A DNA stretch of 62,482 bases, filler included. It is 13 parts of 13 records of this genome, joined end to end, with 100 filler letters (N's around TTAATTAATTAA, not from the genome) between each part and the next. Parts side by side here need not be neighbours in the genome. Positions count along the whole stretch, not along the records: positions 23,770 to 26,825 come from SRR7504441_4011; 12 more parts are not named here. One strand, given 5' to 3'. This document shows, piece by piece, positions 9,612 to 28,955 of the stretch; the stretch's first letter is position 1, and every line of letters begins with the position of its first letter. Both the position numbers and the translations under genes were made by a program. The notes below the pieces were generated by a model. It saw only the letters and a list, made by a program, of their open reading frames with translations. It searched no databases and was not told the origin of the DNA.

Positions 9612-9691
9612 TGAGCCGTCGATCGGGTTCCCGTGGCTCTACTCCATTCGACGAGTAACTCACTTCCTTCATGAGCCGTCGATCGGGTTCC
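9612..9691 (+). repeat. Two exact 20-nt direct repeats TGAGCCGTCGATCGGGTTCC, period 60 nt
   Basis: Copies at 9612-9631 and 9672-9691, just upstream of the ATG at 9734. Confidence 0.9.
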
Positions 9692-9733
9692 GCGCGGGTC
9701 CTGAACGCGGCCGAATTTCGAACTCTTTGAAGC

Positions 9734-11280
9734 ATGGCCGCGCTTTCGCCAGCAGAGAAGATCAAGGTGTGGTCAGACTGCGCCTGGCGCTCACCCGTGG
9801 CGCTGCAGCTGCACCGGATCGGCGACCGCGAGCTGGCGCAGGCCTTCAGCATCCCCCAGGACGGTGGATTCAGCTCGGACGAAGCTGACGAGACGTCCAC
9901 CGTCGACAGCGACTACGCGCCCCGTCTGCTGTTCCAGGAAGAGTCGAGCCAGGGCGACAGCGAGAGCACCGACGATGAGGGCTATCACGCAGCAGTGACC
10001 GACCAGAGGTCCGCGGCTGACGCCGAATGCTTTTGAGCTCGGACGCCGGCAGGGCGTGGAGGGCTGGAGACGAGGGCAGCTTGCACCAGCCAGAGTGGTC
10101 TGTGTCGCCGAAGGCGCGTGCCGAGATCCTGGAGCACCTGGAGGCGACACAGCAGCGTCTCGAATGCGCGCAGGAGGTGAGCTGCCTCGAGTGGCCCGAC
10201 GTAGACAGACAGGGCAGGTCCTGGAGTTTGCTGAGGACGAGAAGGTGGAGTTGGAGGACCAGCTTGATGCGTCGATCATGGAGAACACAGACCTCGAGAT
10301 TGAGAACATGCGGCTCCGTGAAGAGAAGCTGCTGCTGCAAGCTGGTCGGCCAGCCTCGCCCACACGAATAGTTGACCCATGCACAGAGAATGATCGGCTG
10401 GCTGAGCTGCTCGAAGAGGCTGATCGCACTCAGACCCAGCTGCTCGAGGAATCCGAAGAGCTGCGCCGGCAACTTGAAGTCCGTGACCTTCGTGGGTCGA
10501 AAACTCAGGTAATGATATTACTCCTGTCGTCAACATTGAGCTGTGCTCTCACAGGAGCAGCTGCATCTGCGAGAGGCCGACTTGGAGCTTGCGGAGTCAC
10601 ATGTCTCTGTGCTGAGGGCACATCAGAATCTGGAGACCCGGCGGATTGAGGAGGTGGCGCTGTGGCGTGGCGTACTGGACTGAGTCAAGTGCACGCAGGC
10701 AGAGCAGGAGGCGGAGCTTTGGAGGCAGCATGCGCAGGAGCTCCTTGACCACGTCCACGAGCTGTTGCCATACGAGGTATCATTGCGTGACTTGGCCGCC
10801 TGATGGTCGGGTCCAGGAGGAAGAAAATGAGACAGTAGCTGAAAAGCCAACCGAGATGCTTGAAGCAACAATTGAGCACCTTCGTAACCAGGCGGAGATC
10901 CTTCGTAACCGAGTCAAGGTACCGGTGCCTACATTGGGCCACATAGTCACCTCTGAGTGCAGGAAGAAACGCGAAGGGCTAATGTGGCTGAAGGTGCTGC
11001 AGAAGTCTTCTCCCTGAGGAGCCCTCGGTCAAAGGAAGAGGTTGATGAGATTGAGCTCGACAACGCCATACTGACAAAGAGGATGGCTGACTACGAGACC
11101 CAGCTAGTCGAGCACAGGAATGATCTCGTGCGTCAGCTGAACACTCCACAGAAAAGCATGAGAGTAGAACCGCAGCCCGACACGCCGTATGATGACGACG
11201 ATGTCCAGCCGATGGGCCTCAAACCCAAGTATGATTTTGAACGGTCGCGATATGCAGTCATCCCGGAGACTGCGTACTGA
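9734..11280 (+). CDS. Uncharacterised coiled-coil protein, multi-exon
   Basis: Chain of acidic, coiled-coil ORF fragments separated by short GT-AG segments. Confidence 0.55.
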
Positions 11281-11519
11281 GCACTGCTAGAGCTGCAATG
11301 CTCGGATCTGTTTCTCTCTAGTGCACATGGATGCACACATGAGGATCTATCAAGATCTCACAACAGGTCTTGGTCTGAGACATGATTGTGGAGTAGTACA
11401 TTAAATTAAGGATGCGTACGGATGTGATGCTGGGATCTCGCAAAACACTAGATTAGTGTTCAAAATGGCACTAGTTACATGTAAAGGTAAGTACGTTTTA
11501 TCAGAAAGCATAAAACTGT

Positions 11520-12164
11520 CTAGCTACACTTTGCTATACATGTATGCGTACTCTCTACCTTGTGCATCGATGTTGTTCCTCTCGTCCCATTGGCGTACCA
11601 GAATGCTAGAGCCGCGCTCACCGCAGCTGCACAGGCACCAACAGCTATAGCCATCTGGGCTAGCGTGGCTGCCACAGTGTTTCTTTTTATGGTTGGCCGA
11701 ATGTAAGTGCTCATCAGCAGTTTCCAGGCAGCCTGTGATGCCTCAAACCACGCAGAGTCCTCATCGCCCAGCATGTATATACCTGCCGACTAAAGGTCTA
11801 CAGACGTTCGTCGGTAGGCAACGCACCATACTTATTAAACGCCTCTGCCAGCGCATCCAGCTTCCGGGTGAGACCGCGGCAACTACCGCAACACTTGCAG
11901 GACGTGCAAAACTTGGCGTGCATTTCCAACCATCCCTTCATCAGAAACTCTGTCACAAAGATGATAAACGTGGATGGAAGTACGAACACTGAGCCAATCA
12001 CAATCGACCCAAATTTGAACCGAAACGCGTTGCTCACGGCACTCAACACCACTTGAGGCTCGCCTGCCAACAGCAGTCAGTGCTTCGGCCACAAGATCAC
12101 TACCCACTCTCCATGAACTGATGAAGCCGTACGGCCATCTTCTCTGGGGTATTACCCTCCTTTA
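11520..12164 (-). CDS. Choline transporter-like (CTL/SLC44/Pns1) family, 3' part
   Basis: VLSAVSNAFRFKFGSIVIGS, CKCC, AFNKYG|IYMLG...WFEASQAAWKLL resemble the CTL C-terminal domain. Truncated by spacer. Confidence 0.55.
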
Positions 12165-12264
12165 NNNNNNNNNNNNNNNNNNNNNNNNNNNNNNNNNNNN
12201 NNNNNNNNTTAATTAATTAANNNNNNNNNNNNNNNNNNNNNNNNNNNNNNNNNNNNNNNNNNNN
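12165..12264. other. Artificial contig spacer, first of 12 (others: 17127-17226, 20455-20554, 23670-23769, 26826-26925, 31570-31669, 35196-35295, 39517-39616, 44535-44634, 50095-50194, 54456-54555, 59169-59268)
   Basis: Identical N-run + TTAATTAATTAA (stops in all six frames) + N-run at each site. Confidence 0.98.
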
Positions 12265-12889
12265 CTCCGGCAGCGCGGCGTTCAAGGCCCGGCAACAGCT
12301 CGGGCTGGACGAGGCCCGGCAGATCAAAGCAAGCAGCGCCACTGCGGGGAGTCAGTCCACCTCGCCCTTCAAGGATGTGCTGGACAACCTGCTATCAACC
12401 CCAGCTCCGAGTTCTACCGGCACTGAAGAAAGCCGCGGCCCATTGCTACGGGGTCTGTATTCACAGCTGGAGACATTGCAGAACGAGCTCCTTTCTCAGC
12501 CGAGGGCAGTCCGGAGCAAAGACACCCAGAGGCGGCAGCAGATCAAGGAGATCGAGCTGCTGATCGAGCAGGAGAACCGCAAGCGAGGAATCGGCCGATC
12601 GTCTTCAGCTGCGATACCGCACACGCCGACTGTAGCAGTTCAGGACGCCCAGCCGGCCGCTGCTGCCGCCCCTGGAGCACCGATGAACCTCTTCACTGCC
12701 CAGCGTGACGACGACAGCAGCAGTGACATTGATGAGGAGACCCCGATGAACTCTCCTGTCGGTCGCAGGGTGCGTGCCAATGTGCCAGTGACCAGGCCTG
12801 TTTCTGCAACTCCTCCACAGTCGATGAGCCCTGATGAAGAGGCCAAATTTGCTGCATACATGAAAGCCTCGGGAAGCACTCGGACCTAA
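12265..12889 (+). CDS. 3' part of an uncharacterised low-complexity protein
   Basis: Open frame from the contig edge to the stop at 12889, with coding-like composition. Confidence 0.45.
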
Positions 12890-13362
12890 AGCCTCTATCT
12901 GAGCCTCTCAATACTCTGACAACCATGACGATGCACGAATACTACCTATTGCACACTAGTCATTACACAATGATATTATGCTGGTATGTAGGTATCCCGT
13001 ATCCTCAATGTAATAGATATCATGGGGGTTGTTTTTGTGTATCGTTTATGGCATTGATGTTGTGCTCGTAATAATTATAATTATATCATACAATAATGTA
13101 CACTCGTACGATACGTAAGTAACATGCAAGCGTAAAGCAATAGCATGAACAAAGTTGCTTATGATAGTTACGTTATACTGGTGATTTATTGTCCGGCATG
13201 TCGTGCTCAACCCTGGTTTGAATAAATACAGGTATCGATTCACTACGTCAACTCACAAGCTGCCGACACGTCGTCCATAAATTGAGCCGCATCATCGCGG
13301 CTCTCCACTATACTAATCTGGATGGTTACTACTAGTGCGCTCAGGCGCAATACTTGCTTGGT

Positions 13363-15705
13363 TTACAACTCCTTGGCGTCCTCGTCCTCCTTGCTCTCCT
13401 CCTCCTTGGGCTCCTCCTCAGCAGCAGGCTCGGGCTCAGGGTCCAACTCAACCTCGGGGTCCTCTACAGCCTCATCCTTGGACACACCCAGCCCAAGCCG
13501 CATCAGAGTCTCGAGCCGAGTGGCAAAGCTACTGGGGTCGGCTGGGGTCAGGCCCGCCTGCACGAGCGCAACATCGAACAGAGTGTCTGCCATCGCCTTG
13601 GCCTCCTCGTCAGAGTTGTCCTTCTCGACACGGTTCTTGAGCTCCTTAATGATCGGGTGGCCCGGGTTGATCTCGAGGGTCTTCTGAGCCACCATGCTGC
13701 TCGAGCGATCGTTGTTGCCCATGGTCTGAGCCTTCATGATACGCTCCATGTTAGTCGACCAACCGTATTGGCTGGACACAAGAATCGCCGGAGTGTCGAG
13801 CAGCCGGTTAGACACCACAGCCTTCTCGATCTTGGAGCCCAGAGACTCCTTGAACCAGTCGGTCACCGGCTTGTACATCTCACCGATCTTGGCGAGCTTC
13901 TTCTCCTCGACATCGTCATCCTCGAGCTTCAAGTTCTCCTTGTTGGCACCAGCAAACTGGAAGCCCTTGAACTCAGTCAGCTGGGGCATGGCATACTCGT
14001 CGATCGGGTCGATGTAGTAGAGCACCTCGTACCCCTTCTTCTTGAGCCGCTCCAGGTAGGGAGACTTCTCGACTGCCTCCTTTGACTCGCCAGAGATGTA
14101 GTAGATCGACTTCTGGCCCTTCTTCATCCGGGAGATGTACTTCTCGAGCGAGGTGTAGTTGTCGCCGCTCTTGGATGAGAAGAAGCGGAGCAGCTTGGCC
14201 AGCTTGGTCCGGTTGGACGAGTCCTCGTAGAGCCCAAGCTTGATCGCTTTGTTGAACTCCTTCCAGAAGGTGATGTAGTCCTCGTGGTCCTCAACCTCCG
14301 CAGCCGGGTCCGACTCCTTCTCCTCCTCCTCCTCCTCGGCGGCCTCCTCGGCCTCCTCGTCGTCGTCCTTCTTCTTCTTCTCGGCGATCTTGCGGATCAT
14401 CTCGAGGGTCTTAGTTACGAGCTTCTTCTTGATCACTCGCAGCACCTTGGAGGTCTGGAGCATCTCACGCGACACATTCAGCGGCAGATCCTCGGAGTCG
14501 ACCACGCCCTTAATGAATGACAGCCAGCGGGGCATCAGGTCTTCGAACTCGTCAGTGATGAACACACGACGCACGTAGAGCTTGATTGAGCTGCTCTTGG
14601 CCTTGCCCTCCATCAGGTCGTACGGGGCCTTCTTTGGGATGAACAGGATCGATTTAAACTCGATCTCGCCCTCAGCCGAGAAGTGCATCTTGGCCAGAGG
14701 TCCGTCTGTCTCCTTGGTGATCGTGTTGTAGAACGAGTCGTATTCCCCCTCCTCGACTTCACGCGAGGACTTGGTCCAGATCGCCTTCTCGCTGTTGACC
14801 TGGTTGGTCTCGACCACTTCCTTCTTCACCTTCTTGGTCTTCTTCTTTTCGGCCTCGTCGCCATCCTTGATGTCCAGGTCGTCGTCGCCCTCCTTCTTCT
14901 CCTCGTCGTCGCCCTCCTTCTTCTCCTCTGAGGCCTCCTCGTCGCCCTCCTCAATGGGGACTTCCTCCTCGACCTCCTTGGTGGTCTGCAGCAGAATCGG
15001 GAAGTTGATGAACTCAGAGTACTTCTTCACCAGCTCCTTGAGCTTATCGGGTTCGGTGAACTCCTTGCAGTCGTCCTTCAGGTGCAGGGTCACCTTGGTG
15101 CCCCGGCCCAGGGTGTCGCCGGCTGGGTCCTCGCGGATGGTGAACGACGAGTCAGCGGTCGACTCCCAAATGTACTGCTTGTCATCGTTGTGCTTGGTGG
15201 TCACGGTCACCTTGTCTGCCACGAGGTAAACCGAGTAGAACCCCACCCCGAACTGGCCAATCAGGTTGACGTCGCCGCCATCCTTGAGCTTCTCTAGGAA
15301 GCTAGAGGTGCCCGATTTGGCGATGGTTCCCAGATTGTTGATCAGGTCCTGCTTGGTCATGCCGACCCCGCGGTCGGTGATCGAGACCGTGTCGTCGTTC
15401 TTGTCGCCCTTAATCGTGATGTCCAGCTTAGCGGTGTCGCCCTCGCCCAGCATGCCGGGGTCGGTGACTGAAAGGAACCGGATCTTATCCAGCGCGTCCG
15501 AGGCGTTGGATATGATCTCACGCAGGAAGATCTCCTTGTGCGAGTACAGCGAGTTGATGATGATATCCATCAGCCGGGTGACCTCGGCCTGGAACTCAAA
15601 CTTCTCCGATGGAGCCTCCTCCTCCGCGGTGACCACGCCGTCTACCGAGCAGAAGCACACCGCCGCGATCGCCACCAGTGCCAGGAATTTCTTGAGAGCC
15701 ATCAT
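13363..15705 (-). CDS. HSP90B1: Endoplasmin / GRP94 (ER Hsp90), intronless
   Basis: Signal peptide [58 protein letters not shown]-terminal ER-retention-like AKEL. The true start is 15705; the ORF track extends further upstream. Confidence 0.97.
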
Positions 15706-15807
15706 GTTGTCTCTTCGATCCAGCAGCTCGCGCTCCCGCGTTCTAGTCTCACGATCGACGTCATAAGGTCCAGACCGTCTGTTTTGGGAGTTCGGTAAAA
15801 ATCTGAG

Positions 15808-16316
15808 ATGGGCTGGGCGCCCGGCCCTCGGTCCTGGGCCACCGCGGCCCGGATCGTCGCGAGCGGCGAGCTGGGCCAGTTCAACCCGCCACGATCCCGG
15901 GCGGTGCAGACAGTGTACGACGCCTGGAGGGTCCGCACACTCGAGCAGTACCCCTCGCTCGAGCGCTGGGCGCTCGCGGCCCGGATCGGGCTGGACGGCG
16001 CCGTTGGAGGGGGGGGGGGCCGCGGGTCGTCTGGTGGGTGAACGACTTTCCTTACTGGTGGGAGCCCGGGATCGAGCAACACGTGATCTGGTGCCACGGG
16101 CTGGGCGGCCCGTCGCTGCTAGAGCTTCCGCCGGTGACGGTCGAGCTAGCCCGGAGGCGGCCGGCTGGCGAGTGGGAGGTGCTGTGCTGGGAGAACCCGA
16201 CCAACCTACAGTCGATCCCCGGGGTGCGGCACCTACAGGCACGTGCATGCCGACTGGCGGCTCAGGGGGCCGAGCAGGTGCTCTCGCGCCGCCGGCAGCC
16301 GAGCGCGAAGCTATAA
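15808..16316 (+). CDS. DUF3605 / GIG1-like protein (apparent frameshift at a poly-G run)
   Basis: [17 protein letters not shown] and [17 protein letters not shown] match the family pattern (NDxPY...H.V.W...ENP..L.SI..V.H). Confidence 0.65.
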
Positions 16317-16567
16317 CAACACGAGTACTTGTACACTACACTTGCTAGAGAGATGCTCAAATAGATATTTGAACTATGAAATCGTTCTTAATAGTACATG
16401 AGAATTTTAATACTGATCTAAGCAATGCTATCTACACCGAAGCATTTGTTGTACGTACTCGTACTCGTACGAGTACATGACGACTACTTACACTAAGTCT
16501 TGTTGGGTGACAAAATACATATTTCCGACGGAAAGGACCGCCTCTGATAACTGAACCCACCGACTAA

Positions 16568-17126
16568 TCATCGGACATGGCCATAGTAATCCTCAAACAC
16601 GGCCACCGTCTGGTCCAAGGTGCTCTTGAGCAGCGTGAACTTATCCCGCGACCGCTTGACCTGGTTGCTGTCCACGTAGCAACCGCCACTGTCCTCAAGC
16701 TCACGCGCCTGGTGGATGTATTCCTCTAGCATCCAGTCGCAGTCCTTGGCCAGCTGAGCCAGCTTGATCCCGATGATGTTGGTGATTGTCTCTTTCTTCA
16801 CCTTCACCCAGCCCACCTCCTCCTCCTCCCTTGGATCCGTGTTGTACGCGAGAAAGGCTCGCTGCATCGTGGACCCAGCCATAGGCACGTTCCCGTTCAT
16901 TGCCCGGCAGGCCCCCGAGGGCACGAAGCTAGCGTCCATCGTCCAGTCAGCGTTTGAAGGCACCCGGATGTTATCATAAGCCGCCAGTTCGTCCTCCTCT
17001 CCATAGAACCTCACCTACATTCCAGGCTCAGTCCCATCTCAGCCCTCATGCGAGTGCCTGCACTGTCGGTCCGACTTCCTTCGCCTGCCAGCGCCCGCGA
17101 ATCACGAACGTCTCGTCGTTATACTT
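16568..17126 (-). CDS. 3' part of an uncharacterised protein
   Basis: 148-aa ORF with strong GC3 codon bias; truncated at spacer. Confidence 0.45.
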
Positions 17127-17441
17127 NNNNNNNNNNNNNNNNNNNNNNNNNNNNNNNNNNNNNNNNNNNNTTAATTAATTAANNNNNNNNNNNNNNNNNN
17201 NNNNNNNNNNNNNNNNNNNNNNNNNNACTTGTAGGGGTTATTAATTTAAGGCCCGTACCTAGTAGGTATTGTACTGTAGTACGTATACTACCTGGTACCG
17301 GTAGTCTAATAAGACTAGATCTACCGAGTACTAATAGTTCTACGGACCGGACGCACGGCTTTCACCAGCTGAAGCTGAGGCGCCGGAGCAACTCTGCGAG
17401 GAGCCAACCACGAGACAAGGCACGACCTACCGACCGACGGA

Positions 17442-20400
17442 ATGTCCGGCGAGGGATTTTTTCAGCGCCGACGCGCCGGGCTGGACCCGCCCGCTGCCGT
17501 GCTGCTCGACGCCATCACCGAGTCGATCACCGAGCGCGCCCGGGCCACCGGCACCCCGCTGCAGGTCCGCAGCCCAACGGCAACCGTAACTGAATACAGC
17601 TGGGCGCCACTGCGTACTACGCGGCGCTGCTGACCGCGGTCGATCGGCCTGAGTCGCTCGAGGCCGGCCACGCGGACCGGACCGGCCGGTTGCTGCTTCT
17701 GCTGGAGCTGGCGCTCGAAGGGTGGCTGGCGGTAACAGCAACAGTGACGGCGAGGGGGCAGGGTGCCGTCCGCGGTGCTCGGGCAGCCCGCGGTTGGCCG
17801 GTCGAAGCTGATTCCATTGCTCATGGGCGCGGCCACCGCCCACAAGAGCGACCCGGTTCATGGGTCGCTGGGCTAACAACTCACTGCAACGCAGGCGGTG
17901 CTCAGCCGGGTGATCAGCTGTAGCAGGGCCTTGTTCGAGCTGAGCGACCGTCAGGCGGCCGCTAAATACTTTACCGTTGACCGGGGGCAGGTTTGGACGG
18001 CTGACCGAACTCTGCCGGCACTGTACGAAGGCCTGCTCGCGTTGTCGATTGACACCCGGCCCGCAGTAATTGCCGCCGCACCGGTGTCCGTTACAGCGGT
18101 TCAGGTGTGCCAGGGGGCACAGGAGGCTGTGCACGCACTCTGGGGCTCAAACAAGCCACCGGCCGCTGTGGGGACAAGCACCGCCAACTGGCTCGCCGCA
18201 GTGCCTCCCGGTGCTAGTGGTAGCTGTAGCGGAATCGCAGGTGCTCGAGAAGGGGAAGACTGCCACCGGGGGCAACGCCATGGAGCAGCTGGTCCAGGCA
18301 ATTCCCGTTAGATCCGGCAACTTAGATTCTAGATTAGTTGGGTTTAGGCGCTCACACTGCTCCGGCCGCTCTGGTGTCAACTAAAGCCCAAATCAACCGT
18401 CTCGCTGGCCACCCAGGTGCTCGCGCTGCGTGAACGGACCCAGACAGGGTTGCAACTCGCGTGCAACGCCGCTTTGGAGGGTCTGTTCACCGGCTTAAGC
18501 CCCTCAGTGCTGCCAGACTTGACAATCTCCAAGCTGGTGGTCGCCACAACTCAGGTGCCAACATCTTTACAACAGCAGTTTAACTGACTTCTAATCGACA
18601 GTGGCGGCCGAGCGAAGGCTTGGTCAATTTGGACCTTGTGACCGGTTATTTTCGCGTGGTGGCTGCTGGTTTCGGGCTCTGGGCGCAGGTTTTATACTTA
18701 ACTGATATCATGTCTCGATATGGCTCATATACAGCCGGTACGCGGGGGGTTGAGATGCGAACTGTCAGGTCGCCCCGACTGAGTGCGCACAGAGCCTGCC
18801 GTTGGCCGTGGCAGGGATAGCCCGTTACCTCGGCAGCCCGCACCCCAAGGTTAGCCCGTAGCCGACGTGTCATCCAACCGTTGCCGATGGCCAGGTGAGC
18901 GCACAGGCGGTTGGCAAGCTTTCCGACCTGATTCAGTACTTCGGGCCGGCCGGGCTGCCGCAGGGGACACTGGCAGCTGTCGTGACTCAGCTTGAGGCTG
19001 CCATACAAGGCCTCGAGGTGCTCCCCTCTGCAATATAAATACTGGACCGTAACTGTAACCAGCAGGCGGCTCGGCTGGCGTCCGGCCTGGATGTTTACGC
19101 CGCACTGTTCGAGGTGCTGGGCCCAAAATCGCTGCCAGCACTCGGCGAGGTGCCTGATGCTCATGTCGAGATGAGAGACTTGGTCAATCGAGGGCAGGTA
19201 CTGGTGGCAGCAGCAAGGCTGCGTGCGGGGGGCAACGGAAAGCTGCAACGGGCGATCAATCGGCTGGTCGGGTCAGCGATCCGGGCAGTAGGGCCACCAG
19301 CAGTGCTGCAGTTGATTCCACTAGGTTCGCGCGACAAAGCAGAGCAGGTTGACAGTTTTATCCAGGCGTGGACCCAAATGTGGGCGTGACCGACAAGAGT
19401 CAGACATGGTTGATCCCTTTGATGGCCCAGAATGTCCGACGGGCCTCGCTGCTCTGGTGTGCTGCAGTGCTGCTGTCTGCTCAACGCTGCTTAATCAGGT
19501 TTGGATCATCTCTAGTTGCGCTGGCCAATGCTCTGTTGGCAGCCGCTGCGAGCAATGCCGAGGCCGGGCTGGAGGTGTTATATAAGTCTGACTGTGATAC
19601 CAACTATTGTCAGGTGGCAGCGCGCAACATGCAGCTGATTGCACATCAGCTGTGGGGCCTGCTCCCAGCGTTCTGCCGCGACCCAATCGACCTCGTGCAT
19701 GCCTTCCCACACATGGCTAAGGTGTTAACTGTTATCAGTCAAACACCAAATAAATGCCCTCAGGTGCTTGGAACCAAGATTTCGGAGGGCGGCGAGATTT
19801 CAGTGACGGTTTGTGGTTCAATTGCATCTCTGATTGCCACTGCGAGCAAGCAACAGGACCAGCAGCAGGCCCAGGCATCAACAGCTGCAATTGCCGCGTG
19901 CGCCGCTGCTGGCAGCTCGGACTGATGGACTTTAGGTTTGCACCCAACTTCCTGCCGGTGCTGTTTAATTACTTTTTGTCGGCAAGCTCTGCACAGCAGC
20001 AACAACAGCTTGAGGCTGCCAAGCGGTGGCATTTGCGACCGTGTTAAGCACTGACTCCACAAACCACCACTGCAGGTGCATCACAGGATTCTGCGGGATT
20101 ACGCCTAAAGCCACTGTGTCTGAATTTTTCAAAAGCATAGTGCATCGGATCCTCTCGTCACAGGTGCTTGCCACTTATTGTTTGGTTGGGTGAACAGTTT
20201 GATTGAGCAGGAAAGTGCTGCTCCTGCTGCAGGACTTCAATCGGATTTAACTGAACTGGCACTGCTGCTTGTTGGCTCATTGGACTCTGAGGCCGCCGAG
20301 CTCCTCTTCCAAGTCCGACTTATAATAATCCCATTTGATTTGGCCAAGTTAGTCTAATCTCAGGTGGTGGAGCCTATGTTGTTGGAGGCCGAGCCCGTGC

Positions 20401-20454: not shown

Positions 20455-20697
20455 NNNNNNNNNNNNNNNNNNNNNNNNNNNNNNNNNNNNNNNNNNNNTT
20501 AATTAATTAANNNNNNNNNNNNNNNNNNNNNNNNNNNNNNNNNNNNNNNNNNNNCTCGGTGCAGCCGCTTATGGCTGCATCCATCAGCGTCGCGCAGCTA
20601 GATTCCTGCCTCTCCCATGACGGCGTCAGCTGCCTAATCAAGGCCCGACCCGCCATGCTGTGCCCAACCGAAACCTTGGAGAGGCTGGCGATCGGCG

Positions 20698-22825
20698 ATG
20701 GCTGCTCGCACAGTGGAGCTGCCGGACATTCACGCCACTGAGGGGCTCGGGGCGGTGAGTCGGGGCCCGCTCGCTGGTTTGGCCCGGTCTCTCACAGCTT
20801 GCCGGGCGCAGGCGCTGGCCCCGCACTGCCGGCCCGGGGACGTGATCTTCCTGATCGGAGACCTCGGCGCCGGCAAGACCTCCCTCTCACGGGGGCTGAT
20901 CCGCCAGTTCTTCGGAAATCCGACGCTAGACGTGCCCAGCCCGTCATACCTGCTCCAGTTCACCTACCGCGACGAGGGCAGCGAGCAGGGGGCGCCAGCC
21001 GAGGGCCAAGGGATGGAATTCAGAGCAGGCCGGTTCGCCAGTCTGCCGGGGGTGGCGGTGGGTCCGGCGGGCGGCGGCGGGCGGACTGGGGGGCAGGTGC
21101 AGCACCTCGACCTGTATCGGCTCAAGCCGGGCCGGATTGCGGGGCTGGTGGATTTTGATAGGATCTGGCGGGAGGACATCTCGCTGGTCGAGTGGCCCGA
21201 CCGACTCGGCGACCAGCTCAGCTCGGCCAGCCACCCGGCCCGGCTCGAGATCACCTTGTCTGGGAGCGGGCCGCAGGGCGGCAGCCGGAGGGCCGAGCTG
21301 AGAGCCGTGGGCGACCGGTGGACCGAGTTGCTCCGCACACTGGACCTGTCGCAGCCGGCGGCGGCACAAGGGTCAGGCAATACAGGGGCCGCCCCGATGG
21401 CGCCGTTGAATGTGGCCCAGCCTGAAGCCCTGCTCTCGGAGGATAAGCTGGAGAAACTGGTGGTGCTCGGTATTGAATCCAGCTGCGACGACACGGGCGC
21501 GGCTGTGGTCCGAGCCGACGGCACAATCTTGGGCGAGGCACTGGCTTCGCAGGCGGCCGTGCACGAGCAGTGGGGCGGCGTGGTGCCGAATCTAGCCAGG
21601 GAGGCCCACGCCCAGGCGATAGATGCCACGGTCGAGCAGGCAATCAGCAAGGCTGGACTGACGCACGCTGACATCGACGCTGTGGCCGTCACAGTGGGCC
21701 CCGGCCTGGCCCCATGCTTGCAGGTCGGCGTGGGCAAGGCGTATCAGATTGCGGCCGAGCATCAGATCCCGATTGTGCGGGTGCACCACATGGAGGCGCA
21801 CGCGATGATCACGCGGCTGCCTGCTGCGGGCCGGGCTACCCCTGACTTCCCATACGCGACGGTGCTCGTGAGTGGAGGGCATAATATGGTGCTGCTCACC
21901 ACCAAGATCGGAGAGCACTGCATTCTAGGGAGCACGCTGGACGACTCGATCGGCGAGTCGTTTGACAAAACTGCCCGTCTGTTAGGGATCACGCAAGTCC
22001 CAGGAGGGCCTCACCTAGAGAAGCTCGCAACTTCTGGCGACCCTGCGGCCTACACACTACCCAAGCCGCTGTCCAACAGCAAGGATCCAAACCTGCGCAA
22101 AGGCTGCGACTTTTCGTTCTCTGGGCTCAAAACCTCGACAAGGACGTTGATAGAAAAGGAGCTGCGGCCTGAGCTGGTGAGCCATGCCCTGCCCTTGTGC
22201 CTAATCGTGTTGTGCAGTCCGGGGAGGCTCGGGAGATAGTGCGCGCCAATCTAGCGGCAAGCTTCCAGGCCGCCGCTGTCGGCCATTTGGTCGAGCGTGT
22301 GGATAGAGCAATGGTGTGGGTGCTGGAGGTGTGGCAGATGATTCTAGTTTTGATTTGACTCGTGGCGGCCAGGCGCGTCCTGAATCCAAGGCAATGATTG
22401 TGGCCGGGGGCGTGGCTGCCAACAAGCTGGTCCGGTCTGAGCTGACCCGAGTGGCGGCCAAGTATGGGCTGGAGATGCTGGTCCCCCCTGGCCGGCTCTG
22501 TGTGGACAACGGCGTGATGGTGGCATGGACCGGAATAGAACGGTTGAAGATCGGCCTCGGCGAGAAGCCTCCATCGAGCGTGGAGAAGGCTGGGCTGTTC
22601 ACCGAGGTGTGTCGACGCTTGCCCAGGGTTGTTCAGGTGACTGGCCAGGTGAGGCCGCGGTGGGTGCTGGGCCCCCGTGATGCAAGGAGCCAACCTGGTA
22701 ATCGGGAAAAGCCAATATCTAAGAAGCAAGAACAAAAGCGAAAGGCTGCAGAAGACGCCCAAGAGGCAGCGAAAGTGGGTACAAAGCGTGGAAGGGACCC
22801 ACAGACAGCTAATGAGACAAAGTGA
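20698..22825 (+). CDS. TsaE (YjeE ATPase) - TsaD/Qri7 (t6A carbamoyltransferase) fusion, about 5 mini-introns
   Basis: TsaE: GDVIFLIGDLGAGKT, VPSPSY, HLDLYRL, LVEWPDRL. TsaD: LGIESSCDDT, GGVVP..A...H, TVGPGL, HHMEAH, VSGGH, DDSIGESFDK, DFSFSGLKT, AGGVAAN, CVDNGVM. Both lie in one continuous frame. Confidence 0.9.
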
Positions 22826-23902
22826 GGTGATTAATCAGTGTGCTGCATAGCTATTAACCAATTTAATTATACGATAACTAAAACTAATAAAGGGAAACTC
22901 GGTTGGATGAAATGCTCAATCCAATACAGATGATCTGAAGTGTAATTGGTTACTACTGCTGGTTGACCCTTTAGTGCCGCTCAACAGAAATTGTTAAGAA
23001 ATTGTAATCATATTCATGTACGAAATACAACATGTAATTGTTAGTTCGGACTCTCTAACTACCACCGCGCATTGTGCTCATTGTGGTCATGCCTACATGA
23101 CATTGCTAACATGCCGGCAAATGACTCATCAATCTTCAACCGGCTAAGATGCGTTGGGTGACGTTCATGCCATTTGATCTCCATTCGTATGATCTAGAAC
23201 CCCCTGGCTGTCCTTTGGCATGCACGCCCTATCGTCCAGCCGAACCCCCGGTAGTGCCGCCGCCATTGCCTCCACATCGACATATCCTGAATGTTCCCCT
23301 TCAATCTGTTGGACAAGGTCTGGTGGTCGAGGCAGTCCGCCAACTCCCATATCGCTCCAAGTAGGCATCTGCTGTGCCTCCAGGGATGCTGGGGGCGAGG
23401 TCGTGTCCACAATCACACTCATTTGCGGCAAGGCAGGCTCGTCCCTGACCGTGCTAGGTAGTGGTGCCCTGACAGTTCTTACCTTGTCCTTTCTTTTGGT
23501 TCTATTCTGTGGAGTAGGCGGATTATGGAGCTGTTGTACTGGTAGGGTCCCGTTGGGGTTTCCATTTGGGTAGGGCCCAGGCACTAGCCCGGCCGGAAGC
23601 TGCTGTCCAGGAGGACATGGCATCGCTGGTTCCGGAGGGGACATGCCACTGTAGCCGACGTAGCCACCANNNNNNNNNNNNNNNNNNNNNNNNNNNNNNN
23701 NNNNNNNNNNNNNTTAATTAATTAANNNNNNNNNNNNNNNNNNNNNNNNNNNNNNNNNNNNNNNNNNNNACCATAAATTATGCATATGCATATGCATGCT
23801 GTACAACAAATGACTGAATTACGTCTAGTCGTCAACCCATGTGCATACACCCCGCGATACTTGCTTCCTCGGCAAAGAGGATTCGGACACTTCGGAGCAT
23901 GC

Positions 23903-26813
23903 TTATGCATACTCTTTGCCAAGCACCTGCGTTACCACGCTTTTCATATCCATGTGTGGAGGGGCCGCAATAAAAGGAACGGAATGAACGTATCCCGCCT
24001 TTGAGCTTTGTGGTCGAGGCACACCACCAAGCTTTGCACGAATCGTCTGCTCGAGTTTGATTTCTTCTGCTGGATTACTGTACCGGCGTTGAGGCAACCA
24101 GTGCTTATCTGGATGGTAATACACCTGAAGACCTTTCGCTTTCAGGAAGTCAGCAATTGGTTCCATCGGTGTTGCAATCAACGGGAAGAAGAGGAAGATT
24201 GGCGCACTGTCGAAGCAGTCGTAACATCTCTGAAGAGTCTTAACTGAGATGTACGAGAAAGCCCCAGTGGCGCAGCACAGGCCTGTGGGTGCCATGGCAG
24301 CAGCTTCGCACACTGTCGGAGCTTCAACCTCCAGATTTCGCGGCACAACAGAGCTGTACAGTCCCACCTCTGCACCATACTCTAGAGCATGGGCAGCCAC
24401 ATCCTGCGCAACTACCCTAATCCCAGGCCGTTCAGGGCGCGCTGCTCTAGTAAAGAATTCTTTGTCCTGCCGCCGGCTTTTGGTCGGATCGCAAGAGCGC
24501 TGCGGGCTCATAAAGTGCTCAAACATGAAAACCGAGGTCATTGTGCTTAGGATTGGGCCGGTCGACAGTCCATACCCAGCGCACAGCTCAAGCACTACAC
24601 GCTTATTTGCAGGCAGGATCTTGAGAGCACGAGAGCAGATGGTGGCGGTGTGATCTCCAATCTCGTATCCTACTCGGATCATCTCCTTGACGTATGGCAA
24701 AATATCGACCTGGCCACAATCAGTAGGAGAAGTCTCGCCAATTCGCAACCTGGTCGTACACGTCGTCAAACCCTTCTTTCCCCTTAGTGTTGGCGTTCCC
24801 TGCAGTGGCGACGGCCAAATGTCCAAGCAGCGCTTTGGTTCGTCGCTGATGCGCCATCTGAGCGCTAGCAGCCTGTGCCCCCAGCTGCGGCTGAGATCTC
24901 GTTTCTATGGCGAAATCATAGATTGCACCAATCATCTCTTCGAATCTTGGATGCCCGAAATGCATGAAGTCGTTATGCTTAACACCAGCAAGCAGCACAG
25001 GGTTTGTGCGGTTAGTCTGAGCAAATGCTCGAATGTTGTCGGGTGTGTGCAACTCATTCTCTGCGCCGTGCACGAGGAGGACTGGGCAGGGCAGCTTGGT
25101 GGTACCAAACGAGACATTCGAGAGCTCTTGCCAGAACGACCCGCGAACTCGAGGGAGCGCGTAGCCCTCGTGCGCGTACAATTCGTCAATAACGACCTGC
25201 AGCGTCTTGGCATCCAGCGGGTAACCCAGGAATGGAGGGTAAAGCGCGTTAGGCTCCATCCCGTCAACCATTTGTTTGAACTCCGCATATGTCCCCGGGG
25301 GCAAATCTACATCGCTCTCAAGACCACGTGCAGCAATCTTCTGCGTCAGTTCGGCCCGGGCCGAGTTGACAGAGGCAATGACAGACGTGTGTACCATCTC
25401 AGCATCGAGCAGACCGTTCAGAAGGCACACGCCGTCGTACCCGCCGGTTGGCGGTTGGCCAGCAACAGCCGTCGAGAGCGAAGCCGATCCCATGGCCCAT
25501 GCGGCGCCGACCACTCTGTCAAATCCGAGCGCATCGCGAGCATACGCAGCCGCTGCACTGTATCCGTTGGCCTGCTGGCGAATATTAATATCATGAACTC
25601 CACGGCCTGTGCTCCGACCGTACGGAGGGTACTCCAGCGCCAGCACTGTAAGTCCTTTCCGAGAGAGCGCCTGGGCTATTAGAATCGGGTACAGCGCCAC
25701 CCAACCCGTGTACCCACTCCCCACAATGACGACCATCTTCTCACCAGTCCGCTTGCAGGCTCCGCTGGCAAGAGTCTGTGAGCCGTCCGGAAATGCCCGG
25801 CACGGCCGGACCAACACAGCGTGCATGCTCTCAGCATCTTTGACGGGAACAAACACATCCTCTCCCCAGTACCAGTCAGGCTGTTCTGCGTGAATCATCC
25901 CCTGCGGCGCGGGCGGCTTGGCTGGACTCAGATGCAGCAGAGCAGCGTCGGAAGATAGCTCGCAATTCGACTGCAGAACAGCCCGGGTCTGGATCTTGAG
26001 GCTGTTTACCCATCCCACCGGGCCTGAGACCGTTGCCCGACCGAAGCTTCGATCGTGGCAGGTCAGATGGCCTACATGCGGCGCGTCTGTGCAGTCGAGA
26101 ACAACACGATCCTCGCCGAGCGCCTCAACAGCGGCTGCGACGTACGGAGCCACTGCCACGACAGACGCGGATGTTCTGTGCCCCGGGCCTTTGATCATTA
26201 CGTTTCCACTGCGGGCTGCTAGTTTGGCCAGAAGCACCCTGTACGCCGCCGCCGGAGGGCTGTCCCAAGCGCCGAGATGGTCGATCATGAGCGGGAGATC
26301 AGAGGGCACCAGATCGACCGCGGCCGACAGAGTGGCCAGACTCGTTGCCCAAAGCTCCAAGAATTTGCCTTGACGACGCAGCTCGTCGATCGGTGCGTTC
26401 TGCACCAGCCGAGCTACTTCGGCGGCCTCAGCTCCCTGCAAGAAACAGCGGGCGCCGACCACCAGTGGGTGACGGACCAGAGTGGCAGCTCCGGGCTCGT
26501 CAGCGCGTACAACCCCCAGCACGGAGCAAACACGCCGGTACCGGCAGCCATAAAGGGTCTGAAGGCGCGCCAGCTCGGCAAAAGAGTCCAGCACGTGCGC
26601 GGAGGTCGGGAGGGCCGAGTAGGCCACGTTCAGCACCACGACGCGGCCGTTCGGGCGGGAGGCCAGGAGTGCGTCCAGGTGCTGGCGTAGGGTCCAGGCC
26701 GCCGGGCGTGGTGCGGAGCCGAAGTTGCCTGCGTCCAGGTGCGCATCGGTGAAGAGGTGGCAGTGAGCGTCCATGGGAGCGGCAGCCGACTGTTTCCCGC
26801 CAGTCCCGGACAC
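23903..26813 (-). CDS. Three-domain fusion: amidohydrolase (Amidohydro_2-like) + alpha/beta-hydrolase fold + class I SAM-methyltransferase-like; one intron at 24710-24749
   Basis: DAHCH, IDHLG, TDAPH (amidohydrolase); EYPPYGRSTG, LLVHGAENELH, KHND (alpha/beta-hydrolase); VVLELCAGYG, VVAQDV (SAM motifs). A 40-nt GT-AG intron joins FDDVYDQ|VDILPYVK. Confidence 0.78.
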
Positions 26814-27375
26814 GACACACTGACANNNNNNNNNNNNNNNNNNNNNNNNNNNNNNNNNNNNNNNNNNNNTTAATTAATTAANNNNNNNNNNNNNNNNNNN
26901 NNNNNNNNNNNNNNNNNNNNNNNNNGATTGATAGAAATTAACTCTTGAATAAAAATCAGCCTGGACTTTCTAATTTACTTTCTAACTTTCAAAATCCGTC
27001 CAAATCGAACCGTTAGCCTAACCTTTCTTACTCACCAAATTTCTTACTTTCGGTGGTTTACTGTAGGTGCCGACTAAGCCCGACTTAGTGCCGACTGCGC
27101 CCGTGCCATCCTCAAAATCGGCAGTCAGCTCAGTAAGGAATTCTATAATACAAGGGGTCCCCATACGTACCCAGTAACTTGTACCTGTACCACCCCGCGC
27201 CCCTAAGTTCTGCAGTTCTACGCCTGTACATGTACCCGTCCGGTACATGACCGCCGTACCAGGTGTAAAAGTCCGTTGTCAACACAGATTGATAGATTCG
27301 CTGGCTGCGCGCGAAGAAAGTCGAAGGTGCATGGCCGGGCGCGGGCGCTGCGAAGCTGACTGGTGCGGGCAGAGA

Positions 27376-28955
27376 ATGGCGCGACTGTACACGACTAAAG
27401 GCAACGTCAATGGCTTCAAGGCCATGGTGGCCGCGCTGTACAACGGGCTCCCGCTGCAGATCCCGGACAACTTCGAGATCGCGAAGCACGCCGCCACCCC
27501 GGAGTACCTGGCGCTCAGCCCGCTGGGCGAGGTCCCGTGCCTCGAGGTGGATGGCGCCTCGATCCATCAGCCCGACGCCATCCTGCGCTACGTGATGCGC
27601 TGGAACTTAGCCTCGCAGCTCTACGGTCCCCCGCCGGCCGCCGGGCCGGGCTGACATCGGTGCAGGCAAGTCGGCGGTGGAGCAGGCGGCAGTGGACCAG
27701 TTCATCGAGTTCTCCAAGGTGAAGCTGGAGGCCCCGCTCAACGCCTGGACCTACCCGATCCACGGGCTGGTCAAGTACAACCACCAGATCGTCGAGCAGG
27801 CCAAGAAGGACGTCCCCGCAGCTCTCGCCTACCTGGAGGCGCACCTGGCCACCCGCACCTTCCTGGTGGGCGAGTGCGTCACTGGCGCCGACATCGCCTG
27901 CGCGCTGGCCATGCTGGACGCGGCCACTCAGGTGTTCGACGCGGCGTTCCGCGAGCCGTTCCCCAACGTGTTCCGCTGGTTCATGACCTGTGTCAACCAG
28001 CCGCAGTTCCTGGCCGTGATCGGGCAGACTGCACTCTGCACAGAGGCCAAGGATGCCAAGCCAGCCAAGGCTGCCAAGCCAGAGAAGGCCAAGAAGCAAC
28101 CACAGGAGCCCAAGCCAAAGAAGGAGAAGAAGAAGAAGGAGGAGGACGCCGAGGCAGATGAGCCGGCCGCACCGCCGGCCGCGAAGCGGGTGCGGGCTGT
28201 GCTGCCGATGTCGGCTGAGCGTGTCGACAGGAGAACCCGCTCGAGAAGCTCCCGAAGAGCAGCTTCAACTTGGACGAGTGGAAGCGGACCTACTCCAACA
28301 AGAACTGGCCCGAGGCCAAGAAGTGGCTCTGGGAGAACTACGACGCTGAGGGTCAGCCACCCCCGCCCCTGGCTGTCCGCTCTGGCCTAGACATGATGAT
28401 CCCGCAGTGCATAGTTCAGCTGACGAGTTGAACCTCGGTGAAGACTGCACAGCAATTTAGTCTTTCGCTCCTATCTGAACCTTCCTCGGCCAGCCATTCT
28501 CCCATGCGCGCGCTACAGGCAGCAGCTGAGTCTGTGACTGCAGGCTGGTGTTGGTACTTCTGCAAGTACAAGCATCCTTCTGACTTCACCAAGCTGTTCA
28601 ACGCTAACAACCTGATCAATGGCTTCATCCAGCGGCTCGACCCGCTCCGCAAGTGGGGATTCGGCTCGCTGGTGGTGTGTGGCGACGCAAACTCACCGCC
28701 CTGGTGCCTGGCTGGCTGGTCTCTGGCTGATTCTCTCATGACCACAGGAACATCTACGGCGTGTGGCTGTTCCGTGGCAACGAGGTTCCATTCGAGATGT
28801 ATGACTGCCCGGATGCCGAGGTTTACGACTTTGAGCGAGTGGACCTGAACAACGAGGAGCACAAGAGCAAGATGGACTGCATTATGGCTGTGGAAGGCCC
28901 ATTCTTTGACCAGGCTCCCGAGTTTGAGTGCCAAACATGGAAGCCGTTCAAGTAA
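27376..28955 (+). CDS. EEF1G: Elongation factor 1B-gamma (4 introns)
   Basis: GST-like N-domain (PLGEVP, TRTFLVGECVTGADI, FPNVFRWFMTCVNQPQF) and C-domain (SFNLDEWKRTYSN, NLINGFIQRLDPLRK, WLFRG). Confidence 0.96.
28389..28482 (+). ncRNA. Intronic box C/D snoRNA, snR60/U80-like double guide for LSU rRNA
   Basis: Box C ATGATGA at 28393-28399; D' CTGA at 28420-28423 preceded by GCATAGTTCA; C' GTGAAGA; box D CTGA at 28475-28478 preceded by TTAGTCTTTCGCTCCTAT. The two guides are antisense to conserved LSU motifs UGAACUAUGC and AUAGGGGCGAAAGACUAA. Lies in the 192-nt intron 28352-28543. Confidence 0.9.

What the first reader, a model, noticed from the sequence alone, without database searches (positions are those of the whole stretch)
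23903..26813. Hidden three-enzyme fusion: amidohydrolase + alpha/beta hydrolase + SAM methyltransferase-like
The ORF track shows two overlapping ORFs. Removing the 40-nt intron GTTGCG...CTGAT...GGCCAG (24710-24749) gives one protein of ~950 aa. The junction FDDVYDQ|VDILPYV...GYEI rebuilds an N-terminal motif I recall from a bacterial methyltransferase-like family (F.DIY.Q.D...Y......YxI). All three domains look bacterial-type and the gene is intron-poor. It may be a horizontally acquired operon fused into a multifunctional enzyme for an unknown small-molecule pathway; the substrate cannot be inferred from sequence.
Basis: partly seen in the sequence, partly recalled or inferred. Interest (0 to 1): 0.75.

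Follow-up and report, generated by a model that had tools for sequence, protein, structure and literature searches.

The report
Spliced three-domain enzyme gene, protist
A real eukaryotic gene with one 40-base intron encodes a 943-residue protein that joins a lactonase-like hydrolase, an alpha/beta-fold domain lacking its usual catalytic serine, and a methyltransferase-like domain from an unnamed family; its substrate is unknown.

Summary
On the minus strand of a 3,056-base contig (23770..26825), removing 24710..24749 (GT...CTGAT...AG, 40 nt) joins two ORFs into a 943-aa protein with no stop. A 945-aa database protein (P0001, 72-77% identical) is colinear across the junction with no gap. A family HMM built without the window reads through the junction in one stretch. 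EF1-gamma on another contig also has a 40-nt intron.

- **N-terminal domain:** LigI-like Amidohydro_2 barrel with its HxH/H/D residues kept.
- **Middle domain:** alpha/beta-hydrolase fold, but Ser is Ala and Asp is Asn in every homologue seen, so it is not a classical serine hydrolase.
- **C-terminal domain:** class I methyltransferase fold (pLDDT 96) from a family with no Pfam or NCBIfam model.
- **Bacterial linkage:** only the first two domains are linked in bacteria, fused or as adjacent genes in Rhizobiales plasmids. Relatives of the third domain lay near relatives of the first two in 0 of 86 bacterial loci examined.
- **Timing:** the third domain was added within eukaryotes. Only the window and P0001 have it.
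- **Transfer:** codon usage is host-like, so there is no sign of recent transfer.

Substrate unknown.

The parts
24750..26774 (-). Exon 1, codons 1-675, from the ATG at 26772..26774 to the splice donor
   Evidence: P0001 aa 1-675 aligns here at 72% identity and starts with the same MDAHCH. No in-frame ATG lies in the 17 codons upstream to the contig end.
24710..24749 (-). 40-nt GT-AG intron with CTGAT 9 nt before the AG. It holds an in-frame TGA.
   Evidence: Same length as the EF1-gamma intron at 27626..27665. A 52-nt alternative donor at 24761 would delete 4 residues of the conserved spacing.
23903..24709 (-). Exon 2, codons 676-943, plus stop TAA at 23903..23905
   Evidence: P0001 aa 678-945 aligns at 77% identity. 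Stop codon confirmed.
25920..26774 (-). Amidohydro_2 / LigI-like TIM-barrel domain (about aa 1-285). Conserved H4, H6, H166, D230, H233.
   Evidence: Pfam PF04909 at 22.3 bits, below the 26.4 cut-off. Profile A3 against PDB 2ffi, E 1.3e-4, over aa 4-272 including DxHxH, DHxG and the aligned DAPH/DWPH. These residues are invariant in A3. The model shows 8 alternating strands and helices.
24885..25877 (-). Alpha/beta-hydrolase-fold domain (about aa 300-630) with Ala427 (25494..25496) at the nucleophile elbow, Asn573 (25056..25058) at the acid position and His600 (24975..24977) kept
   Evidence: Pfam PF00561 at 23.7 bits, below the 25.8 cut-off. Foldseek 7qjm E 1e-12, TM 0.73-0.78 on the target. 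Elbow is strand 420-426 then helix 428-438. Alignments to GHSLGG and ADQL of solved hydrolases. Columns in A3.
24783..24884 (-). Linker (about aa 631-664), predicted disordered. It contains an RRTxxLLxHLA stretch that also precedes the orthologous domain in P0010.
   Evidence: pLDDT below 50 at 632-640 and 651-675. P0010 sequence.
23906..24782 (-). Class I methyltransferase-like domain (aa 665-943), interrupted by the intron after its first 11 residues. Numbered within exon 2: motif I E41-x3-G45-Y-G47 (24569..24589) and acidic D103 (24401..24403).
   Evidence: AlphaFold model pLDDT 96.1, pTM 0.93. All 40 PDB matches listed but one (4piv, the pseudo-methyltransferase/ketoreductase part of fatty acid synthase, rank 15) are methyltransferases or methyltransferase-like, E 3.5e-6 and weaker, TM 0.30-0.42. 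Invariant Y15, D82, D103, Y111 in 40 sequences. HMM read-through.

Best explanation
A nuclear gene of a GC-rich, intron-poor eukaryote. One 40-nt spliceosomal intron is removed to give a 943-aa protein with three domains.

1. An N-terminal LigI/COG3618-type Amidohydro_2 TIM barrel keeps its catalytic His-x-His, His and Asp. It is probably an active lactone, lactam or ester hydrolase, or a decarboxylase.
2. A central alpha/beta-hydrolase-fold domain has Ser replaced by Ala and Asp by Asn throughout the family, with only the His kept. It cannot act as a classical serine hydrolase. It most likely serves as a partner, lid or binding module of the barrel, or as a non-canonical catalyst.
3. After a disordered linker comes a class I SAM-methyltransferase-fold domain. 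Its glycine-rich loop and ribose-binding acid are intact, so it presumably methylates the same small molecule or a neighbouring one in the pathway.

Shown: gene structure, folds, residue conservation, and the domain history (parts 1 and 2 are linked in bacteria; part 3 was added within eukaryotes).

Inferred: catalytic competence, SAM use, and that the domains act on one pathway. The substrate is not known.
For: **Gene model:**

**Eukaryotic setting:**
- The other contigs carry MSH-type MutS, HSP90, eIF4G, TCP-1, RFC1-like and EF1-gamma genes.
- A 40-nt intron in EF1-gamma is colinear with human EF1-gamma 5dqs.
- Codon-usage RSCU r = 0.80 against the pooled other genes, whose own values span 0.34-0.83.
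- Homologues come from mmetsp and eukprot transcriptomes.

**Domain 1:**. The bacterial homologue L085 scores PF04909 at 56.6 bits, above the cut-off.

**Domain 2:**

**Domain 3:**

**History:**
- P0009 is a 629-aa two-domain protein on contigs of up to 82 kb.
- The N-part is one ORF of 643-649 codons in two Rhizobium plasmids, and two adjacent genes in Shinella (4-nt overlap) and Mesorhizobium.
- Only P0001 among 9 N-part homologues carries domain 3.
- In the tree of the C-domain, the window groups with P0001 and the second domain of P0010 (support 100). That group lies inside a 13-row clade split from 45 bacterial-type rows (support 99).
Against: - There is no transcript evidence for this locus. 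P0001's continuous ORF may come from a transcript or from an intron-less genome.
- The window protein scores below the Pfam cut-off for all three superfamilies. Family placement rests on profiles, models and homologues.
- The two-domain model is only moderate (mean pLDDT 76.7, 10 sequences in the alignment).
- The top 500 structure matches to that model were dominated by alpha/beta hydrolases, so the barrel has no Foldseek confirmation.
- Methyltransferase structure matches are distant (TM 0.30-0.42, at most 15% identity), and the profile search of PDB sequences gave nothing significant (best E 0.05).
- Fusion alone does not prove a shared pathway. The C-domain is also found fused to unrelated partners.
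- The contig ends 51 nt upstream of the ATG, so an upstream exon cannot be excluded. The 68%-identical homologue P0002 begins 16 residues upstream of its equivalent Met.
Confidence: 0.75

Rival explanations
1. A bacterial three-gene operon was acquired horizontally and fused into one eukaryotic gene.
For: All three parts have bacterial relatives. Parts 1 and 2 are adjacent genes or one ORF in Rhizobiales plasmids. Loosely similar neighbours (asparagine synthase, CN hydrolase, ABC transporters) occur near both the N-part genes and some C-domain genes (7 and 5 of 79 loci).
Against: No co-location of part 3 with parts 1-2 was found: 0 of 79 loci, 0 of 3, 0 of 4. The 68%-identical homologue P0002 and the 'complete' transcripts P0005 and P0006 end after domain 2. 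The orthologous C-domain is fused to a different partner in P0010. The eukaryote-type C-domains form their own clade with several paralogues. Codon usage is host-like. The 79 loci were all actinobacterial, so sampling is biased.
Confidence: 0.07
2. Two separate genes or products. The 40 nt are not removed, giving a two-domain protein that stops 9 codons into the segment, and an independent methyltransferase-like protein.
For: Two-domain homologues are the commoner form. Stand-alone C-domain proteins of about 300 aa are the rule.
Against: ORF B has no ATG before the conserved region. The first Met is 10 residues past the junction and would cut off the conserved N-terminal motif. That motif is completed by the last 11 codons of ORF A. 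P0001 is continuous and colinear. GT-AG ends, a CTGAT near the 3' end and a length equal to another intron of the assembly all fit an intron.
Confidence: 0.05
3. A pseudogene or assembly artefact. The 40 nt are an insertion or mis-assembly that breaks the frame.
For: The contig is short (3,056 bases), from a fragmented assembly.
Against: The extra segment is exactly bounded by GT and AG, and both flanks are otherwise free of stops and conserved at 72-77% to P0001. The catalytic and motif residues are intact.
Confidence: 0.03
4. The contig is a bacterial contaminant in the assembly.
For: It is a small isolated contig with bacterial-type domains.
Against: It needs an intron to be read. Its nearest relatives (42-72% identity) include proteins held by eukaryotic transcriptome sets, while the bacterial relative is at 29-31%. 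GC content of 0.58 and codon usage sit within the range of the other contigs.
Confidence: 0.02

Closest known systems
Bacterial two-domain 'amidohydrolase family protein / alpha/beta hydrolase' (P0009; Rhizobium sp. CB3171 and NXC24 plasmids as one ORF; Shinella sp. HZN7 pShin-01 and Mesorhizobium sp. 131-2-5 plasmid as two adjacent genes)
   Same: Same two folds in the same order. Same conserved DxHxH, DHLG and TDAPH. Same SWAMGS elbow without Ser, the same Asn, and a His at the aligned His position.
   Different: 29-31% identity. No third domain, and no C-domain relative within 9-15 kb in 0 of 4 loci. Function uncharacterised. The annotation names are generic.
LigI-type Amidohydro_2 hydrolases (PDB 2ffi, putative 2-pyrone-4,6-dicarboxylate hydrolase)
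   Same: Aligned over about 270 residues with the His-x-His, DH-x-G and D-x-PH positions matched.
   Different: E is only 1.3e-4 with a family profile. The window's own Pfam score is below the cut-off. The substrate is untested.
Monoglyceride-lipase-like alpha/beta hydrolases (PDB 7qjm, 6eic, 3hju)
   Same: Fold match: Foldseek E 1e-12 to 1e-9, TM 0.65-0.78 on the target. Cap region and His position are present.
   Different: Nucleophile Ser is Ala or Gly and acid Asp is Asn across the family. Identity is 13-18%.
Class I SAM-dependent methyltransferases (best structure matches BioC 8x8j, PsmD 7zkg, histamine N-methyltransferase 1jqd)
   Same: Rossmann-like methyltransferase core, glycine-rich motif I, and an acidic residue after strand 2.
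   Different: TM only 0.30-0.42 and at most 15% identity. About 50 residues are inserted between motif I and strand 2. The family has its own N-terminal motif and a C-terminal PQRR[FY] region. No Pfam or NCBIfam model matches. RefSeq names relatives 'class I SAM-dependent methyltransferase' or 'hypothetical protein'.

Membership tests
Spliceosomal intron | GT...AG ends; removal restores one open frame colinear with homologues | tested here: met
Spliceosomal intron | Length and branch-site-like motif typical of the same genome | tested here: met
   The EF1-gamma intron at 27626..27665 is 40 nt with CTGAC 10 nt before the AG. Further candidates of 39-65 nt were not verified.
Spliceosomal intron | Spliced transcript observed | not testable with these tools
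   No RNA data are available. P0001's contig of 2,967 nt may be a transcript, but its nature is unknown.
Amidohydro_2 (PF04909), LigI-like | Pfam score at or above the gathering cut-off | tested here: not met
   Window: 22.3 bits against 26.4. 3 of 10 aligned homologues match at E <= 1e-3. The Rhizobium homologue L085 scores 56.6 bits.
Amidohydro_2 (PF04909), LigI-like | His-x-His on strand 1, a later His, and Asp on strand 8, in a (beta/alpha)8 barrel | tested here: met
   H4, H6, H166 and D230 are invariant in A3 and aligned to 2ffi. The model shows eight strand-helix units.
Alpha/beta hydrolase (serine hydrolase) | Alpha/beta-hydrolase fold | tested here: met
   Foldseek 7qjm E 1e-12, TM 0.73-0.78 on the target. 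Pfam PF00561 at 23.7 bits is below the 25.8 cut-off.
Alpha/beta hydrolase (serine hydrolase) | Ser/Cys/Asp nucleophile at the elbow, with the acid and His of the triad | tested here: not met
   The elbow residue 427 is Ala (Ala in 7 and Gly in 2 of the 9 sequences reaching the column). The acid position 573 is Asn in 8 of 8. The His position 600 carries His in 8 of 8 (P0007 and P0008 do not reach it).
Class I SAM-dependent methyltransferase | Rossmann-like methyltransferase fold | tested here: met
   Model pLDDT 96.1. 217 PDB matches at E <= 1e-3. All 40 listed but one (4piv, fatty acid synthase pseudo-methyltransferase/ketoreductase part) are methyltransferases or methyltransferase-like, but TM is only 0.30-0.42.
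Class I SAM-dependent methyltransferase | Motif I glycine-rich loop and an acidic residue ending strand 2 | tested here: met
   Motif I reads E41-L-C-A-G45-Y-G47. G47 is kept in at least 90% of the 40 sequences of A1, and E41, G45 and G47 are invariant in the 9 sequences of A4. D103 is invariant in all 40 and follows strand 98-102.
Class I SAM-dependent methyltransferase | Match to a curated methyltransferase model | tested here: not met
   No Pfam or NCBIfam family matches the window piece. 4 of 40 family members match Methyltransf_25 at E <= 1e-3, all below the cut-off.
Class I SAM-dependent methyltransferase | SAM binding and methyl transfer | not testable with these tools
   Needs biochemistry.

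The most novel reading that the evidence does not exclude
The C-terminal domain would represent an unnamed, functionally uncharted family of SAM-dependent methyltransferases. The family is common in Actinomycetota (at least 595 loci among species representatives) and has a separate clade of paralogues in microbial eukaryotes. It has been welded repeatedly to different metabolic modules: a lactonase-like barrel plus a serine-less alpha/beta partner here, asparagine synthase in a bacterium, a CDP-alcohol phosphatidyltransferase, and a second copy of itself in other eukaryote-type proteins.

On this reading the window protein is a self-contained module that makes or recycles a methylated small metabolite. 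One possibility is a glutamate- or 2-hydroxyglutarate-derived or betaine-like solute, suggested by bacterial neighbours such as YdiJ D-2-hydroxyglutarate dehydrogenase, AsnB, CN hydrolase, betaine-type transporters and GlxA regulators. The alpha/beta domain would then be a conserved non-hydrolytic partner.
Probability: 0.2. Interest if true: 0.55.

Novelty: new variant of a known kind. Interest (0 to 1): 0.35.

Why it matters
- The gene gives a clean case of stepwise domain accretion: a bacterial gene pair, then a two-domain protein, then a three-domain eukaryotic protein.
- It flags a sizeable methyltransferase-like family that curated libraries do not cover.
- It identifies an alpha/beta-fold domain that has kept its His but lost Ser and Asp from bacteria to protists, which points to a conserved non-canonical role.
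- It does not in itself answer a standing question, and the substrate is unknown.

Tried and rejected
- **Cluster look-up:** The listing of cluster members for P0001-P0009 was not available. Source organisms of most database proteins therefore stayed unknown.
- **C-domain against PDB sequences:** the profile gave nothing significant, best E 0.05.
- **NCBIfam:** no family for either piece of the window or for P0001. P0009 gave only far sub-threshold hits to 4-sulfomuconolactone hydrolase and an esterase.
- **Conserved neighbours of the C-domain gene in 79 actinobacterial loci:** weak. ABC ATPase in 14, asparagine synthase in 7, CN hydrolase in 5, Rieske oxygenase in 5. Many of these loci are related Rubrobacteraceae, so the counts are not independent.
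- **Atlas look-alikes:** for the N-part all scored 0.81, leads only. For the C-domain they were actinobacterial clusters named hypothetical or 'putative Methyltransferase type 12' at 0.97.
- **Word-indexed searches for close C-domain relatives:** 1 hit with the single sequence and 15 with alignment A4, so they add little beyond source labels.
- **Literature:** two full-text searches, listings and abstract starts only. One used amidohydrolase, beta hydrolase, methyltransferase, gene fusion, HGT and protist. The other used DGCC, betaine lipid, methyltransferase and CDP-alcohol phosphatidyltransferase. Neither found anything on this architecture or family, which is not proof that it is unpublished.
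- **Plus strand of the contig:** 0 of 5 ORFs match Pfam. No Rfam family on either strand.
- **Intron scan of the window:** the regex scan was too noisy to give a length distribution.
Full report
**Setting.** The window is not one stretch of genome. It is 13 contigs of 3-12 kb joined by N44-TTAATTAATTAA-N44 linkers. The finding sits alone on contig 23770..26825 (3,056 bases, GC 0.58), so nothing in the window is its physical neighbour.

The other contigs carry plainly eukaryotic genes: MSH-type MutS, HSP90, eIF4G, TCP-1, an RFC1-like protein, EF1-gamma, Patched and RhoGEF. Their GC content is 0.53-0.61.

**Observation.** On the minus strand two ORFs overlap (24720..26873 and 23903..24904).
- The ATG is at 26772..26774.
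- The donor GT is at 24749/24748 and the acceptor AG at 24711/24710.
- The stop TAA is at 23903..23905.

Removing 24710..24749 (40 nt) gives 943 codons without a stop. Unspliced, the frame stops at codon 685.

P0001, a 945-aa protein on a 2,967-nt contig, aligns as follows:
- aa 1-675 to 26774..24753 (72% identity);
- aa 678-945 to 24706..23906 (77% identity);
- between them lie two codons plus exactly 40 nt.

A 52-nt alternative donor would also keep the frame, but it would delete four residues of a spacing that is conserved in the family.

**The intron lies inside a conserved domain.** Relatives of the C-terminal part start with the motif GKAxFxxxYxxPDPRxYxxxLxxLDYxIP. In the window, the last 11 codons of exon 1 and the first codons of exon 2 rebuild this motif.

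A family HMM was made from 39 homologues without the window:
- the spliced protein matches positions 6-286 of 296 in one stretch (243.1 bits);
- exon 2 alone matches positions 27-286 (225.0 bits);
- the tail of exon 1 matches positions 6-22.

ORF B has no ATG before this region.

**Is a 40-nt intron plausible here?** Yes. EF1-gamma on another contig is interrupted at 27626..27665 by 40 nt, GT...CTGAC...AG. Its two exons are colinear with human EF1-gamma 5dqs: exon 1 runs to about residue 91 and exon 2 starts from about residue 89. Other candidates of 39-65 nt were seen but not verified.

Long uninterrupted open frames in HSP90 (990 codons) and MutS (976 codons, cut at the window's start) show that intron poverty is normal for this genome.

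**Domain 1 (aa 1 to about 285).**
- Pfam Amidohydro_2 scores 22.3 bits, below the 26.4 cut-off.
- A profile of ten homologues matches PDB 2ffi, a putative 2-pyrone-4,6-dicarboxylate hydrolase, at E 1.3e-4 over about 270 residues. DxHxH, DHxG and the aligned DAPH/DWPH are all aligned.
- H4, H6, H166 and D230 are invariant.
- The model shows eight strand-helix units.
- A Rhizobium homologue passes the Pfam cut-off at 56.6 bits.

**Domain 2 (about aa 300-630).** The fold is clearly alpha/beta hydrolase: Foldseek 7qjm at E 1e-12 with TM 0.73-0.78 on the target, then monoglyceride lipases.

The triad is not there.
- The elbow between strand 420-426 and helix 428-438 carries Ala427. It aligns to the Ser of GHSLGG. 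That column holds Ala in 7 and Gly in 2 of the 9 sequences that reach it.
- The acid position is Asn573 in 8 of 8 sequences that reach it.
- The His position (His600 in the window) carries His in all 8 sequences that reach it.

This pattern runs from the bacterial P0009 to all eukaryotic members. It is therefore a conserved state and not decay.

**Domain 3 (aa 665-943).**
- No Pfam or NCBIfam model matches. Of 40 family members, 4 touch Methyltransf_25 below its cut-off.
- The AlphaFold model is confident (pLDDT 96.1, pTM 0.93).
- All 40 PDB matches listed, but for one fatty acid synthase entry (4piv, rank 15), are methyltransferases or methyltransferase-like: BioC, PsmD, histamine, phenylethanolamine and glycine N-methyltransferases, and Tam. 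They are distant, with TM 0.30-0.42 and at most 15% identity.
- Motif I (E-L-C-A-G-Y-G) and the acid after strand 2 (D103, invariant in 40 sequences) are intact.

An exhaustive search of 1.84 billion cluster representatives found 207 relatives at E <= 1e-3. Most are stand-alone proteins of about 290-310 aa. Of the 150 listed, 3 exceed 500 aa:
- P0010, a tandem of two such domains;
- P0031, CDP-alcohol phosphatidyltransferase plus this domain;
- P0064, asparagine synthase plus this domain.

A scan of bacterial and archaeal species genomes found at least 595 loci. The record titles of the best 79 all name actinobacterial taxa, by my reading. RefSeq plasmids label relatives 'class I SAM-dependent methyltransferase' or 'hypothetical protein'.

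**History of the fusion.** Parts 1 and 2 go together in bacteria.
- P0009 is a 629-aa two-domain protein at 29-31% identity.
- Two Rhizobium plasmids have one ORF of 643-649 codons.
- Shinella and Mesorhizobium plasmids have two adjacent genes, with a 4-nt overlap in Shinella.

Part 3 is not linked to them.
- tblastn of the N-part (from the window and from P0009) found nothing at E <= 1e-3 in 0 of 79 actinobacterial C-domain loci with up to 10 kb on each side. The window's own C-piece hit 78 of the 79.
- It found nothing in 0 of 3 alphaproteobacterial plasmid loci. There the window's C-piece also failed to hit, so that test rests on the N-part queries alone.
- Nine C-domain queries found nothing at E <= 1e-2 in 0 of 4 N-part loci with 9-15 kb on each side.

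Among eukaryote-type N-part homologues, only P0001 of 8 has part 3. P0002 (68% identical) ends right after domain 2. P0005 and P0006 are labelled complete ORFs.

In a quick maximum-likelihood tree of 58 C-domains, the window, P0001 and the second domain of P0010 form one group (support 100). That group lies inside a 13-row clade separated from 45 bacterial-type rows (support 99). Two members of the wider eukaryote-type set are held by the mmetsp and eukprot collections. The sources of the others are unknown.

P0010 shares with the window the RRTxxLLxHLA leader before the domain. The same domain has therefore been attached to different partners in related organisms.

Codon usage of the gene correlates with the pooled other genes of the window at r = 0.80, where their own values span 0.34-0.83. 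Its GC3 of 0.53-0.66 overlaps the lower part of their span of 0.57-0.82, exon 2 lying just below it. Nothing marks a recent arrival.

**Mechanism.** The most likely reading is one polypeptide in which:
- the barrel is catalytically competent (residues kept);
- the alpha/beta domain is a conserved non-classical partner;
- the methyltransferase-like domain uses SAM.

All three would act on one small-molecule pathway. Only the residues and folds are shown. Activity and shared substrate are inference.

Bacterial context gives weak leads.
- The N-part genes lie beside GlxA-type regulators in the 3 of 4 loci whose neighbours were read.
- A YdiJ-type D-2-hydroxyglutarate dehydrogenase is adjacent in Mesorhizobium (NCBIfam equivalog, 1459.8 bits against a 1350 cut-off). 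Shinella has two adjacent FAD-oxidase and Fe-S ORFs at the matching place, identified by Pfam only.
- Asparagine synthase lies beside them in Mesorhizobium. A CN hydrolase lies a few kb away there and about 8 kb away in Shinella, next to a betaine-type ABC transporter.
- Asparagine synthase and CN hydrolase also recur near some actinobacterial C-domain genes.

This hints at amide, lactone or quaternary-amine metabolism but proves nothing.

**Verdict.** The gene model is right and well supported. 'Three-enzyme' should read 'two likely enzymes plus a serine-less alpha/beta domain'. 'Acquired operon' holds at most for the first two parts. The architecture is rare: the window and P0001 are the only two cases seen. 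The C-domain family is uncharted, so this is a new variant of known kinds, of moderate interest.

**Left unchecked.**
- Transcripts of this locus.
- The organisms behind most database proteins (unavailable).
- A genome-wide co-occurrence scan from the N-part side (cap reached).
- The metagenome and viral contig collections (closed).

Noticed in passing
whole window; linkers at e.g. 23670..23769 and 26826..26925: The window is 13 contigs (3.1-12.2 kb) joined by N44-TTAATTAATTAA-N44 spacers. Genes on different segments are not neighbours.
   Followed up: yes
27626..27665 (+): The EF1-gamma gene has a 40-nt GT...CTGAC...AG intron. Its exons are colinear with human EF1-gamma 5dqs.
   Followed up: yes
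20638..22236 (+), continued at 22307..22822 (+): One open frame carries Pfam TsaE (aa 56-113) and TsaD (aa 296-505), with the end of TsaD in the next ORF. This looks like a TsaE-TsaD fusion gene in a eukaryote.
   Followed up: no
41263..43116 (-) and 43120..44532 (-): Two long ORFs in the same frame are separated by a single stop codon, and the upstream one matches Patched SSD. This could be an in-frame intron, read-through or a sequencing error.
   Followed up: no
47232..47273 (-), 46625..46689 (-), 40084..40122 (+), 49766..49805 (-): Further candidate short introns of 39-65 nt with CTRAY near the 3' end. Two of them flank serine carboxypeptidase ORFs. None was verified against homologues.
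   Followed up: partly
P0002 and P0005 (homologues, not in the window): Two-domain homologues end in -SKL and -SRL, which look like peroxisomal PTS1 signals (recalled consensus). The window protein and P0001 end in -EYA.
   Followed up: no
P0010, P0031, P0064 (database proteins): The methyltransferase-like domain also occurs as a tandem pair, fused to a CDP-alcohol phosphatidyltransferase, and fused to asparagine synthase B.
   Followed up: partly
L081 (Mesorhizobium plasmid) 3730..13960; L080 (Shinella plasmid) 9001..19524: In Mesorhizobium the bacterial amidohydrolase and alpha/beta-hydrolase gene pair lies beside asnB, a nitrilase-related CN hydrolase, a YdiJ-type D-2-hydroxyglutarate dehydrogenase and GlxA-type regulators. 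In Shinella it lies beside two FAD-oxidase/Fe-S ORFs, an AraC-type regulator, a betaine-type ABC transporter and a CN hydrolase.
   Followed up: partly
L082-L084 (alphaproteobacterial plasmids): In L082 and L084 the stand-alone C-domain gene sits among IS elements and transposases. In L083 it lies in a short run of unrelated genes bounded by IS6 transposases. None shows a conserved operon.
   Followed up: partly
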